Origin: Escherichia coli
Lineage (GTDB): Bacteria; Pseudomonadota; Gammaproteobacteria; Enterobacterales; Enterobacteriaceae
Assembly: GCF_003334305.1 (NCBI RefSeq)
Contig: NZ_QOWS01000010.1
Direction: 5' to 3' (one strand)
Length of the DNA stretch: 64,000 bases
Shown: one piece after another, positions 26,955 through 55,751 of the stretch
How positions within the stretch are numbered: position 1 is the first letter of the stretch
Layout of the letters: each line of letters opens with the position of its first letter
Program-made: the position numbers and the translations under genes
The notes under the pieces: model-generated
What the model saw: the letters and a program-made list of their open reading frames with translations, nothing else
Told to the model about the DNA's origin: nothing
The model's database searches: none

Positions 26955-30572
<3,618 letters not shown>

Positions 30573-48706: not shown

Positions 48707-50371
48707 TCAGGCTACCTTTTCGACAGAAACGTCGGCATCAGGGCGGGTCAGCGTCATCACCGACGCCAGTTTATTCAGCGTATTGCCCAGGATTTGCGGA
48801 ATGGCGGTGGCGGCAACAAAGCGATCCGGGCGCATCACCACCAGCGAAGCATTGTGTTGCGCGAACCAGCTACGCAGACGACCTTGCGTATCGCCCACGC
48901 GTAGCACGCCGTCGTGGTTATCCTGTGCGGTATGAATTTGCACTTCCGGCACCACCTGAATGAAGCGTGTGCCCAACGCGCGCCACTGCTGGATTTGCTC
49001 GTCGCTCATCCCCCACAGTGGATTGCATCCCCAGCCAATTACCGCGAAGTTCGCGCCAATCGCGTTATCGAGCAGCGTCACGTCGCCGTTTTCCAGCGTG
49101 ACTTTCGGCTGAATAAACATCTTGCCGACCGGAGAGTGCTTCGCTTCGCCCTCACGTACCAGCGCACCGCCGTAATATTGCGGCATCGGCTTGAAGCGCA
49201 TTTCGAGGAAGTAGCGTTTTACTGGCGGCAGATAATTCAGTAGCCAGGAAACGCCGTCACGTAACGTACCCTGCCAGCGTTTCGGCGGAGCCAGCACGTT
49301 GCCCGCCGTCACGGACAGGTCAATCATCGCTTTGGCGTGATCGCGACGTTCTTGTTGATAGGTATCGAGCAGCGCATCGCGGGCTTTCCCCTGGATAACC
49401 AACGCCAGTTTCCAGGCGAGGTTAAAGGCGTCGCGCATACCACTGTTATAGCCCTGCCCCTGCCACACCGGCATGATGTGCGCGGCATCGCCCGCCAGCA
49501 GTACGCGATCAATACGGAAACGTTGCGCCAGTCGCGCGTTATGGGTGTAGACACGCTGGCGAATCAATTCAACATTGTCCGGATTAGGCAGCACTTTGCT
49601 TAACAGCTTGCGCATATTTTGCGGCTCACGCAGCTGCTCTTCGGTTTCTCCCGGCATCACCATAAATTCAAAGCGACGTACCGCATGAGGCAGCGCGGCA
49701 GAAACATACGGGCGCACCGGATCGCAACACAAATAGATATGCGGCGTACTTAACGGATCGTTGGCGATATCTACCACAATCCACTGATTTGGCGCAGTTT
49801 TACCTTCAAACGGCACATTCAGAGTGCGACGGACAAAACTTGCTCCACCGTCACAGGCTACCAGCCACTGGGCTTTGACCGTTTCCCGCTGCCCTTCTGC
49901 CGTTTTCAGGTGCAAGGTCACTTCGTCATTTTGCTGGCTGAAGGCCTCCAGCTCGCGGGCAAACAAGCAGCGCACATTCGGAAAACGCGACAACCCTTCC
50001 AGCATCACCGCATCGACCTGTGGCTGAATAAAGGCGTTACGGCGCGGCCAGCCAAATTCATCGGTCATTGGCTGAATATCAGCAAAACAGCGGCCTTTTG
50101 GGGTGAGAAAACGCATCGCGTGCCACGGTGTAGTGTGCGGCAGAACATTCTCGACCAGGCCGACCGACTGCATGGTGCGCAGCGCCTCGTCATCAATACC
50201 AATCGCACGCGGGTAGTCGATCAACTTATCGAGTTTCTCCACCACCAGCACGTCAATGCCCATCTGACCGAGATAGTTCGCCATCATCAGCCCAACCGGA
50301 CCGGCACCAGCGATCGCCACCTGAACGCTATGGTTAACAGCAGGCTGGATGTCAGGGTGTTGTATTGCCAT
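48707..50371 (-). CDS. mhpA: 3-(3-hydroxyphenyl)propionate hydroxylase (FAD monooxygenase)
   Basis: 554-aa ORF, FAD-binding GAGPVG motif. Confidence 0.95.
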
Positions 50372-50561
50372 TTCAGTACCTCACGACTCGGACAAAATGC
50401 CGTTGCGCGCACAGTACAGCGCAACTTATTTTGTTAAAAACATGTAAATGATTTTTTATTGTGCGCTCAGTATAGGAAGGGTGTTTTCGGCTACAATCAA
50501 AACATGCCCGAATGTGCACCAGGTGCACAACGTTGTTTTAACTATAGAAATGTCAATTAAT

Positions 50562-51395
50562 ATGCAGAACAATGAGCAGACGGAATACAAAACCGTGCGC
50601 GGCTTAACCCGCGGTCTAATGTTATTAAATATGTTAAATAAACTTGATGGCGGTGCCAGCGTCGGGCTGCTGGCGGAACTCAGCGGCCTGCATCGCACCA
50701 CTGTGCGGCGAATGCTGGAGACGCTGCAGGAAGAGGGATATGTCCGCCGTAGCCCCTCCGATGATAGTTTTCGACTGACCATCAAAGTGCGGCAATTAAG
50801 CGAAGGATTTCGTGACGAACAGTGGATTTCTGCACTGGCGGCCCCACTGCTGGGCGATCTGTTGCGCGAAGTGGTATGGCCGACAGATGTGTCCACGCTG
50901 GATGTTGATGCAATGGTGGTACGCGAAACCACTCACCGTTTCAGCCGCTTATCCTTTCACCGGGCAATGGTCGGGCGACGTTTGCCGCTTCTGAAAACCG
51001 CCTCGGGCCTGACCTGGCTGGCCTTTTGCCCGGAACAAGAACGCAAGGAATTAATCGAAATGTTAGCCGCCCGCCCCGGTGATGACTATCAACTGGCACG
51101 AGAACCGTTAAAGCTGCAAGCCATTCTGGCGCGCGCGCGCAAAGAGGGTTACGGACAGAACTACCGCGGCTGGGATCAGGAGGAGAAGATTGCCTCTATC
51201 GCCGTACCGCTGCGCAGTGAACAACGGGTGATTGGCTGTCTGAATCTGGTGTATATGGCGAGCGCAATGACCATTGAACAGGCAGCGGAAAAGCATCTTC
51301 CGGCGCTACAACGGGTAGCAAAACAGATCGAAGAAGGGGTTGAATCGCAGGCTATTCTGGTGGCCGGACGGCGAAGCGGCGTGCATTTACGTTGA
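50562..51395 (+). CDS. mhpR: IclR-family activator of the mhp operon
   Basis: 277 codons from ATG 50562 (MQNNEQTEYKTVRGLTRGLMLLN...); divergent from mhpA. Confidence 0.9.
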   Translation: MQNNEQTEYKTVRGLTRGLMLLNMLNKLDGGASVGLLAELSGLHRTTVRRMLETLQEEGYVRRSPSDDSFRLTIKVRQLSEGFRDEQWISALAAPLLGDLLREVVWPTDVSTLDVDAMVVRETTHRFSRLSFHRAMVGRRLPLLKTASGLTWLAFCPEQERKELIEMLAARPGDDYQLAREPLKLQAILARARKEGYGQNYRGWDQEEKIASIAVPLRSEQRVIGCLNLVYMASAMTIEQAAEKHLPALQRVAKQIEEGVESQAILVAGRRSGVHLR

Positions 51396-51471
51396 CACCA
51401 TCGAATGGCGCAAAACCTTTCGTGGTATGGCATGATAGCGCCCGGAAGAGAGTCAATTCAGGGTGGTGAAT

Positions 51472-52554
51472 GTGAAACCAGTAACGCTATACGATGTCGC
51501 AGAGTATGCCGGTGTCTCTTATCAGACCGTTTCTCGCGTGGTGAACCAGGCCAGCCACGTTTCTGCGAAAACGCGAGAAAAAGTGGAAGCGGCGATGGCG
51601 GAGCTGAATTACATTCCCAACCGCGTGGCACAACAACTGGCGGGCAAACAGTCGTTGCTGATTGGCGTTGCCACCTCCAGTCTGGCCCTGCACGCGCCGT
51701 CGCAAATTGTCGCGGCGATTAAATCTCGCGCCGATCAACTGGGTGCCAGCGTGGTGGTGTCGATGGTAGAACGAAGCGGCGTCGAAGCCTGTAAAGCGGC
51801 GGTGCACAATCTTCTCGCGCAACGCGTCAGTGGGCTGATCATTAACTATCCGCTGGATGACCAGGATGCCATTGATGTGGAAGCTGCCTGCACTAATGTT
51901 CCGGCGTTATTTCTTGATGTCTCTGACCAGACACCCATCAACAGTATTATTTTCTCCCATGAAGACGGTACGCGACTGGGCGTGGAGCATCTGGTCGCAT
52001 TGGGTCACCAGCAAATCGCGCTGTTAGCGGGCCCATTAAGTTCTGTCTCGGCGCGTCTGCGTCTGGCTGGCTGGCATAAATATCTCACTCGCAATCAAAT
52101 TCAGCCGATAGCGGAACGGGAAGGCGACTGGAGTGCCATGTCCGGTTTTCAACAAACCATGCAAATGCTGAATGAGGGCATCGTTCCCACTGCGATGCTG
52201 GTTGCCAACGATCAGATGGCGCTGGGCGCAATGCGCGCCATTACCGAGTCCGGGCTGCGCGTTGGTGCGGATATCTCGGTAGTGGGATACGACGATACCG
52301 AAGACAGCTCATGTTATATCCCGCCGTTAACCACCATCAAACAGGATTTTCGCCTGCTGGGGCAAACCAGCGTGGACCGCTTGCTGCAACTCTCTCAGGG
52401 CCAGGCGGTGAAGGGCAATCAGCTGTTGCCCGTCTCACTGGTGAAAAGAAAAACCACCCTGGCGCCCAATACGCAAACCGCCTCTCCCCGCGCGTTGGCC
52501 GATTCATTAATGCAGCTGGCACGACAGGTTTCCCGACTGGAAAGCGGGCAGTGA
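51472..52554 (+). CDS. lacI: Lactose operon repressor LacI
   Basis: 360 codons from GTG 51472 (VKPVTLYDVAEYAGVSYQTVSRVVNQ...), ends ...QVSRLESGQ; codon 135 reads GAT (Asp) where I recall GCT (Ala). Confidence 0.96.
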   Translation: MKPVTLYDVAEYAGVSYQTVSRVVNQASHVSAKTREKVEAAMAELNYIPNRVAQQLAGKQSLLIGVATSSLALHAPSQIVAAIKSRADQLGASVVVSMVERSGVEACKAAVHNLLAQRVSGLIINYPLDDQDAIDVEAACTNVPALFLDVSDQTPINSIIFSHEDGTRLGVEHLVALGHQQIALLAGPLSSVSARLRLAGWHKYLTRNQIQPIAEREGDWSAMSGFQQTMQMLNEGIVPTAMLVANDQMALGAMRAITESGLRVGADISVVGYDDTEDSSCYIPPLTTIKQDFRLLGQTSVDRLLQLSQGQAVKGNQLLPVSLVKRKTTLAPNTQTASPRALADSLMQLARQVSRLESGQ

Positions 52555-52567
52555 GCGCAACGCAATT
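52547..52567 (+). promoter_or_regulatory. lac operator O3
   Basis: GGCAGTGAGCGCAACGCAATT overlapping the lacI stop. Confidence 0.85.
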
Positions 52568-52589
52568 AATGTGAGTTAGCTCACTCATT
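52568..52589 (+). promoter_or_regulatory. CRP (CAP) binding site of lac promoter
   Basis: AATGTGAGTTAGCTCACTCATT, wild-type palindrome. Confidence 0.9.
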
Positions 52590-52602
52590 AGGCACCCCAG
52601 GC

Positions 52603-52632
52603 TTTACACTTTATGCTTCCGGCTCGTATGTT
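52603..52632 (+). promoter_or_regulatory. lac promoter (-35 TTTACA, -10 TATGTT, 18-bp spacer)
   Basis: TTTACA at 52603-52608 and TATGTT at 52627-52632; wild-type, not lacUV5. Confidence 0.9.
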
Positions 52633-52638
52633 GTGTGA

Positions 52639-55751
<3,113 letters not shown>

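What the first reader, a model, noticed from the sequence alone, without database searches (positions are those of the whole stretch)
52636..52640. G-to-A difference at position -1 of the lac promoter, immediately flanking operator O1
Window reads TGTGTGAAATTGTGAGCGGATAACAATT; the textbook sequence is TGTGTGGAATTGTGAGCGGATAACAATT. The changed base (52638) is just upstream of the transcription start and inside the extended ~35-bp pseudo-symmetric operator region but outside the 21-bp core. It may subtly alter start-site selection or repressor affinity, or simply mark a non-K-12 allele.
Basis: partly seen in the sequence, partly recalled or inferred. Interest (0 to 1): 0.25.

Follow-up and report, generated by a model that had tools for sequence, protein, structure and literature searches.

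The report
Common natural lac promoter allele
The A just upstream of the lac transcription start is the normal, probably ancestral base carried by about 84% of sequenced E. coli, so the laboratory K-12 "textbook" G is the odd one out and the finding is ordinary.

Summary
Window base 52638 (position -1 of lacP1, one base upstream of the 21-bp O1 core at 52639-52659) is A, where K-12 MG1655 has G. It is the only difference from MG1655 in the 122-bp lacI-lacZ intergenic region. The -35, -10, CAP site, O1, O2 and O3 are identical to MG1655.

It is not a mutation of this strain. Allele-specific probes against 5,426 complete E. coli genomes give about 4,358 genomes with A and about 807 with G. About 300 of the G genomes carry the K-12 haplotype, and almost all of those sampled are laboratory K-12 derivatives. 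The other G genomes sit on a lac haplotype about 2.3% diverged from K-12 (042, ST69, ST38 and similar). Three natural Escherichia outgroup loci, including E. whittamii, all carry A. So A is the majority and probably ancestral state. The window is essentially E. coli strain A7.

No effect on function was measured. Sequence-based rules predict little change: the swap is purine for purine, and it lies outside the core operator. Small effects on minor start sites, A-tract slippage or repressor affinity cannot be excluded. It is already known and of low interest.

The parts
52638..52638 (+). Polymorphic base at position -1 of lacP1: A here, G in K-12
52639..52659 (+). lac operator O1, 21-bp core AATTGTGAGCGGATAACAATT, identical to K-12. 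Position +1 is 52639.
52632..52666 (+). 35-bp extended pseudo-palindrome around O1. 30 of 35 positions are self-complementary here against 28 of 35 in K-12. The arms TGTGTGAAATTGT and ACAATTTCACACA are a perfect 13-bp inverted repeat.
52627..52632 (+). lacP1 -10 hexamer TATGTT. Position +1 is the 7th base downstream of it.
52603..52608 (+). lacP1 -35 hexamer TTTACA, separated from the -10 by an 18-bp spacer
52570..52585 (+). CRP (CAP) site TGTGAGTTAGCTCACT centred at -61.5, identical to K-12
52547..52567 (+). Auxiliary operator O3 GGCAGTGAGCGCAACGCAATT centred at -82, identical to K-12
53040..53060 (-). Auxiliary operator O2 inside lacZ, centred at +412. The + strand reads GGTTGTTACTCGCTCACATTT. 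Identical to K-12.
51472..52554 (+). lacI. It has one amino-acid difference from K-12 (A135D), and the DNA-binding headpiece is identical.
52677..55751 (+). lacZ

Best explanation
Base 52638 is the ordinary wild-type state of the E. coli lac promoter. A at -1 is the majority and probably ancestral allele of the species. The G printed in textbooks is a derived minority allele. It is found on the K-12 laboratory lineage and, separately, on a diverged D/F-type lac haplotype. In this window the site sits in an otherwise K-12-identical regulatory region that should work in the classical way: CRP at -61.5 activates lacP1, and LacI bound at O1 and looped to O2 or O3 represses it. The A/G difference is inferred to be nearly neutral, because it swaps one purine for another outside the -10 hexamer and outside the 21-bp operator core. 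Shown here: the allele's identity, frequency, polarity and haplotype backgrounds, and the identity of every other regulatory element. Inferred only: near-neutrality of function.
For: Allele-specific 30-mers centred on the SNP hit 4,069 genomes for A and 796 for G, out of 5,426 complete E. coli genomes. Two further local haplotypes add 289 genomes with A (plus the O1 +12A variant) and 11 with G (plus -3C). That classifies 5,165 of the 5,219 genomes carrying the promoter, 84% A and 16% G. A stratified sample of 15 genomes taken down the similarity ranking gave 12 A and 3 G. The K-12-type haplotype with G occurs in 300 genomes, and a 60-row spread sample is almost entirely recognisable K-12 derivatives: MG1655, W3110, C600, DH5alpha, J53, TOP10, XL1-Blue, HB101 and others. 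In a 2.66-kb lacI-lacZ comparison, K-12 lies 0.30-0.45% from the A-carrying CP53 and the window, but 2.3% from the 042-type clade that holds every other sampled G allele. The three natural Escherichia loci recovered from GTDB representative genomes all carry A: E. whittamii, Escherichia sp. E1V33 and a divergent 'E. coli' SCPM-O-B-8794. The SNP is the only difference from MG1655 in the intergenic region, and that matches the 0.96% background divergence. The -35, -10, CAP site, O1, O2, O3 and the LacI headpiece are unchanged. On function, the published start-site rules concern purine versus pyrimidine at -1 and +1, distance from the -10, and G at +2, and a G-to-A change at -1 alters none of these for the +1 start. 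Razo-Mejia et al. [quoted passage not shown] Vlkova & Silander (bioRxiv 10.1101/2022.03.17.484780) found that only two other sites (-7 and +6 relative to the ATG) track the noise phenotype among natural variants. Phillips et al. (PMC6851279) found little association between lac-region SNPs and regulatory parameters.
Against: No expression, start-site or binding measurement exists here for the isogenic A/G pair, so near-neutrality is an inference. I could not see the figures of the cited surveys, so I cannot confirm that they display this exact site. The A allele does change three physical properties. It creates an AAA run at -1 to +2. It makes the 35-bp operator region more symmetric, 30 of 35 positions against 28 of 35. 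It lowers stacking stability of the -11 to +3 bubble region by 0.83 kcal/mol. The RefSeq complete-genome set is a biased, clonally oversampled collection, so the percentages are not population frequencies. The outgroup scan required an exact O1 match, so species with diverged operators were not sampled.
Confidence: 0.88

Rival explanations
1. The A allele is a functional promoter variant. It makes AAA at -1 to +2 and replaces a G:C pair with A:T at the edge of the bubble. This would shift minor start sites (loss of a GTP-initiated -1 start, possible ATP-initiated -1 start). It would also promote productive reiterative initiation (extra 5' A residues), because a slipped pppApA can pair with template T at -1.
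For: A genome-wide 5'TNET-seq study found that AAA and TTT initiation regions give the highest slippage, that longer A or T tracts add more nucleotides, and that AAA with a 5-nt spacer gives medium slippage (PMC12709180). Position -1 is 6 bp from the -10 hexamer, which is within the usable start-site range. Stacking in the bubble region is 0.83 kcal/mol weaker with A.
Against: The preferred start is the 7th base downstream of the -10, which is +1 and is A in both alleles. The initiation region from +1 is AAT in both alleles. The change at -1 is purine to purine, so the Y(-1)R(+1) rule is unaffected. No lac-specific data were found. Surveys of natural lac promoter variants did not single out this site.
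Confidence: 0.1
2. The A allele changes LacI repression. It perfects the outer 13-bp arms of the extended palindrome and so alters flanking DNA shape or the affinity of the left half-site.
For: Symmetry rises from 28 of 35 to 30 of 35 positions, with perfect 13-bp arms. The literature acknowledges in general that flanking sequence and DNA shape can modulate transcription-factor binding (PMC6375646).
Against: The site is outside the 21-bp core, which is the span the published in vivo LacI energy matrices model. From my own knowledge, not tested here: operator-constitutive mutations map inside the core, and the 20-bp ideal symmetric operator needs no flanks. The LacI headpiece is identical to K-12, so there is no sign of co-evolution between repressor and operator.
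Confidence: 0.05
3. The A is a sequencing or assembly error, or a private new mutation of this strain.
For: None beyond the difference from the textbook sequence.
Against: The identical 30-mer is present in 4,069 independent complete genomes. The whole 64-kb window matches E. coli A7 with 0 mismatches.
Confidence: 0.01

Closest known systems
E. coli K-12 lacP1/O1 regulatory region (textbook sequence)
   Same: The architecture and every functional element are identical: -35 TTTACA, 18-bp spacer, -10 TATGTT, CRP site at -61.5, O1 at +11, O3 at -82, O2 at +412, with lacI upstream and lacZYA downstream.
   Different: One base, at -1: A here and G in K-12. K-12's G is the derived, minority state.
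Natural lac promoter polymorphisms catalogued in wild E. coli (Razo-Mejia et al. 2014, bioRxiv 10.1101/003772; Vlkova & Silander 2022, bioRxiv 10.1101/2022.03.17.484780; Phillips et al. 2019, PMC6851279)
   Same: A segregating single-base variant in the lacI-lacZ intergenic region, at a position predicted to have low regulatory impact.
   Different: Those papers' text does not name the -1 site, and their figures are not available to me. The sites they highlight are in the CRP site and O3, and at -7 and +6 relative to the lacZ ATG.
Operator-constitutive (Oc) mutations and lacUV5-type promoter-up mutations
   Same: Single-base changes in the same 40-bp stretch.
   Different: Oc changes lie inside the 21-bp O1 core and lacUV5 changes lie in the -10 hexamer. 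This site is in neither, and both elements are unchanged here.

Membership tests
E. coli lac promoter-operator region (lacP1 with O1, O2, O3 and the CRP site) | -35 TTTACA and -10 TATGTT separated by 18 bp, with the start 7 bp downstream of the -10 | tested here: met
   -35 at 52603-52608, -10 at 52627-52632, +1 at 52639
E. coli lac promoter-operator region (lacP1 with O1, O2, O3 and the CRP site) | Primary operator O1 AATTGTGAGCGGATAACAATT spanning +1 to +21 | tested here: met
   Exact match at 52639-52659
E. coli lac promoter-operator region (lacP1 with O1, O2, O3 and the CRP site) | Auxiliary operators O3 (-82) and O2 (+412) and the CRP site (-61.5) | tested here: met
   O3 at 52547-52567, O2 at 53040-53060 and the CRP site at 52570-52585, all identical to MG1655
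E. coli lac promoter-operator region (lacP1 with O1, O2, O3 and the CRP site) | Lies between lacI and lacZYA | tested here: met
   ORFs. The RefSeq annotation of the essentially identical A7 record gives lacI, lacZ, lacY and lacA.
K-12 (textbook) allele of the lac promoter | G at -1 (TGTGTGGAATTGTGAGC) | tested here: not met
   A at 52638
Operator-constitutive (Oc) mutation | Base change within the 21-bp O1 core | tested here: not met
   The O1 core is identical to K-12 and the change is one base outside it
Operator-constitutive (Oc) mutation | Reduced LacI binding or raised basal expression | not testable with these tools
   Needs a binding or reporter assay
Promoter-up mutation of the lacUV5 type | Change in the -10 hexamer towards TATAAT | tested here: not met
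   The -10 is TATGTT, as in wild-type K-12

The most novel reading that the evidence does not exclude
The species-typical A at -1 may measurably change lac initiation or repression relative to K-12's derived G. Candidate routes are start-site distribution, 5' A-slippage, bubble opening and the more symmetric extended operator. If so, decades of quantitative lac models would have been calibrated on an atypical laboratory allele.
Probability: 0.1. Interest if true: 0.3.

Novelty: already known. Interest (0 to 1): 0.05.

Why it matters
It matters little. The useful point is a caution: the textbook lac promoter-operator sequence is the K-12 allele, and at -1 it is not representative of the species. 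A difference from K-12 should not be read as a mutation without checking other strains. If the A/G difference did have a measurable effect, quantitative lac models built on K-12 would need a small correction before being applied to wild E. coli.

Tried and rejected
- These were meant as allele-specific 55-mers, but both left an exact 28-base word clear of the SNP, so each query also hit genomes with the other allele. They also covered different ranges: 52612-52666, and the K-12 equivalent of 52621-52675. I use them only for the total number of genomes with the promoter and for the count of K-12-type haplotypes. The allele counts come from the 30-mers.
- This was mis-designed. It did not include the -22 marker and simply reproduced. 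It was redone correctly.
- **O2 search.** O2 was not found at first because I searched the wrong strand. One search found it.
- **Window against A7.** The ungapped comparison failed because of a 2-base offset. BLAST resolved it.
- **Literature.** The classical in vitro work on lacUV5 5'-end heterogeneity and start-site context (Carpousis et al. 1982; Jeong & Kang 1994) is not in the library. My recollection that a minor GTP-initiated -1 start exists on the K-12 sequence therefore remains unverified.
- **Malformed calls.** Searches were malformed queries.
- **Rejected readings.** Sequencing error and private mutation are rejected. An Oc or UV5-like mutation is rejected. Repressor-operator co-variation is rejected because the LacI headpiece is identical.

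Full report
**Observation**

The window reads TGTGTGAAATTGTGAGCGGATAACAATT once, at 52632-52659 on the + strand, with no chance expectation. I fetched the MG1655 lac region (L001). It aligns to window 49621-55675 without gaps at 99.04% identity. Of the 58 substitutions, exactly one falls in the 122-bp lacI-lacZ intergenic region: 52638, G in K-12 and A here. The lac mRNA 5' sequence AATTGTGAGCGG... starts at 52639 and the lacZ ATG is at 52677. So 52638 is position -1. It is one base upstream of the 21-bp O1 core (52639-52659) and inside the 35-bp pseudo-symmetric region (52632-52666). One difference in 122 bp matches the 0.96% background divergence, which predicts about 1.2, so the site is not unusual against its surroundings.

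**Anatomy of the region**

All other regulatory elements are present and identical to MG1655.

| Element | Window coordinates |
|---|---|
| -35 TTTACA | 52603-52608 |
| -10 TATGTT (18-bp spacer) | 52627-52632 |
| CRP site TGTGAGTTAGCTCACT, centre -61.5 | 52570-52585 |
| O3, centre -82 | 52547-52567 |
| O2, centre +412, opposite orientation | 53040-53060 |

- LacI differs from K-12 by a single residue (A135D) outside the DNA-binding headpiece.
- The gene order is proY-brnQ-phoRB-sbcDC ... mhp operon-mhpR-lacI-lacZYA-cynXST-cynR-codAB, colinear with an annotated E. coli chromosome.
- The whole 64-kb window matches E. coli strain A7 (orangutan faeces, NZ_CP028767.1) with 0 mismatches and 2 gap openings.

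**Allele frequency**

I probed all 5,426 complete E. coli genomes in RefSeq with 30-mers centred on the SNP. With megablast's 28-base word, only genomes carrying the queried allele can hit.

| Probe | Genomes |
|---|---|
| A at -1 | 4,069 |
| G at -1 | 796 |
| A at -1 with A at O1 +12 | 289 |
| G at -1 with C at -3 | 11 |

The last two local haplotypes turned up in sampled genomes. Together the four probes classify 5,165 of the 5,219 genomes that carry the promoter, 84% A and 16% G. A stratified sample of 15 genomes taken evenly down the similarity ranking gave 12 A and 3 G. Familiar reference strains carry A: ATCC 8739, O157:H7, ATCC 25922 and an ST131 isolate, and APEC O78, which is 100% identical over 301 bp. 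These are counts in a biased, clonally redundant database, not population frequencies.

**Who carries G**

A 30-mer spanning both the -22 marker (T on the K-12 and window haplotype, G on the other) and G at -1 hits 300 genomes. A 60-row spread sample of these is almost entirely K-12 derivatives, including MG1655, W3110, C600, DH5alpha, NCM3722, J53, TOP10, XL1-Blue, HB101, EPI300 and WG1. The exact K-12 55-mer count of 302 records agrees. The remaining roughly 500 G genomes are natural isolates such as 042, ST69 and ST38.

In a 2.66-kb lacI-lacZ alignment of 27 sequences:
- K-12 lies 0.30% from CP53 and 0.45% from the window, both of which carry A.
- K-12 lies 2.3% from the 042-type cluster, which contains every other sampled G allele.
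- The nearest sites that distinguish K-12 from 042 on either side of the SNP are 52617 and 52670.

K-12's G is therefore either an independent transition on a phylogroup-A-type haplotype or a conversion tract shorter than 53 bp. Excluding the K-12 haplotype, G is at about 10%.

**Polarity**

One scan of GTDB species-representative genomes for GTGTGNAATTGTGAGCGGATAACAATTTC returned 18 loci. The three natural Escherichia loci all have A. They are E. whittamii (7% diverged in the lac region), Escherichia sp. E1V33, and a divergent genome labelled E. coli SCPM-O-B-8794. The other 15 hits all have G and come from non-Escherichia assemblies, including SAR11, Streptomyces and cyanobacteria. Their G is followed by pUC-type polylinkers or sits within a tac-promoter/GST cassette, so they are K-12-derived cloning-vector contamination. 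A is therefore most likely ancestral and the textbook G derived. One limitation is that the scan needed an exact operator match, so species with diverged operators were not sampled.

**Likely function**

Nothing was measured here, and what follows is inference. Published start-site rules are summarised in PMC5730371 and PMC12641261:
- The start is preferred at the 7th base downstream of the -10.
- A purine is preferred at the start and a pyrimidine at -1.
- A G is preferred at +2.

Position +1 (A) is the 7th base in both alleles, and -1 is a purine in both (GAA against AAA). So the main start should be unchanged, and the mRNA from +1 is identical.

Razo-Mejia et al. (bioRxiv 10.1101/003772) mapped natural SNPs of 91 strains onto Sort-Seq energy matrices. 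They report changes below 1 kBT for the RNAP site, with natural variation concentrated at low-impact positions. Vlkova & Silander found that only the -7 and +6 sites relative to the ATG segregate with a transcriptional-noise phenotype among 18 natural variants. Phillips et al. found little association between lac-region SNPs and regulatory parameters. I could not see these papers' figures, so I cannot confirm that they display this exact site.

**What the A allele does change physically**

- It raises the symmetry of the 35-bp operator region from 28 to 30 of 35 positions and gives perfect 13-bp arms, TGTGTGAAATTGT and ACAATTTCACACA.
- It creates an AAA run at -1 to +2.
- It weakens nearest-neighbour stacking of the -11 to +3 region by 0.83 kcal/mol.

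A recent genome-wide study links AAA and TTT initiation regions, and longer A or T tracts, to productive reiterative initiation (PMC12709180). A slipped pppApA could pair with template T at -1 only in the A allele. These points motivate the minor rivals (altered minor start sites or slippage, altered LacI affinity through the flank). None has direct support for lac.

**Comparison with what is known, and verdict**

The locus passes every sequence-testable defining feature of the lac promoter-operator region. It fails only 'K-12 allele at -1'. It is not an Oc mutation, because the O1 core is unchanged. It is not a UV5-type mutation, because the -10 is unchanged. The allele is present in thousands of public genomes, and natural lac promoter variation has been surveyed repeatedly. 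The finding is real but ordinary: already known and of very low interest. The one mildly instructive point is that the textbook base is the derived, largely laboratory-lineage state.

Noticed in passing
Related loci L033 (about position 1536), L037 and L040; equivalent to window 52650: There is a natural variant inside the O1 core, G(+12) to A, giving AATTGTGAGCGAATAACAATT, always with A at -1 in the sample. It occurs in 289 complete E. coli genomes, including O145:H28, APEC O2:K1:H5 and SF-468. Unlike the -1 site, this one lies next to the operator centre and could plausibly affect LacI binding.
   Followed up: partly
Loci L002, L003, L005, L006, L008, L010-L019: Fifteen GTDB species-representative assemblies of non-Escherichia organisms contain the K-12 lac promoter/O1. 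They include SAR11/Pelagibacter HIMB058, Streptomyces, Raphidiopsis, Psychromonas and Ca. Omnitrophus. The promoter is followed by pUC-type polylinkers or sits within a tac-promoter/GST cassette, which indicates cloning-vector contamination of public genomes.
   Followed up: partly
window 1-64000: The whole window matches E. coli strain A7 (orangutan faeces, NZ_CP028767.1) with 0 mismatches and 2 gap openings over 64 kb. The 6-kb lac region is also 100% identical to NCTC9088, H15, TUM1887 and others.
   Followed up: yes
window 52670 and 52682: The window carries A at -7 and C at +6 relative to the lacZ ATG. This is the 'AC genotype' that Vlkova & Silander associate with high transcriptional noise in glucose and with phylogroups A and B1. 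The D/F/B2/E-type haplotypes carry T and T.
   Followed up: partly
window 51875 (lacI codon 135); lacZ 52677-55751: LacI differs from K-12 by A135D, outside the headpiece. LacZ differs at 10 residues within the first 999 codons (the stretch compared), six of them between residues 733 and 774.
   Followed up: no
Loci L033, L035, L036, L037 and L038, positions 1-321 (upstream of lacI): The left neighbour of lacI differs by lineage. It is mhpR in the window, K-12 and the 042-type strains. It is a GlxA-family regulator (annotated ovrA, OI-19) in O157:H7, O145:H28 and 23CRST011. In ATCC 25922 and APEC O2:K1:H5 it is only a GlxA remnant next to yaiL. The mhp cluster is therefore not universally adjacent to lac.
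   Followed up: no
window 27666-30572 (- strand): There is an intact 968-aa ORF, annotated in A7 as an autotransporter outer-membrane beta-barrel protein. From memory, the K-12 counterpart (yaiT) is an IS-disrupted pseudogene. I did not check this.
   Followed up: no
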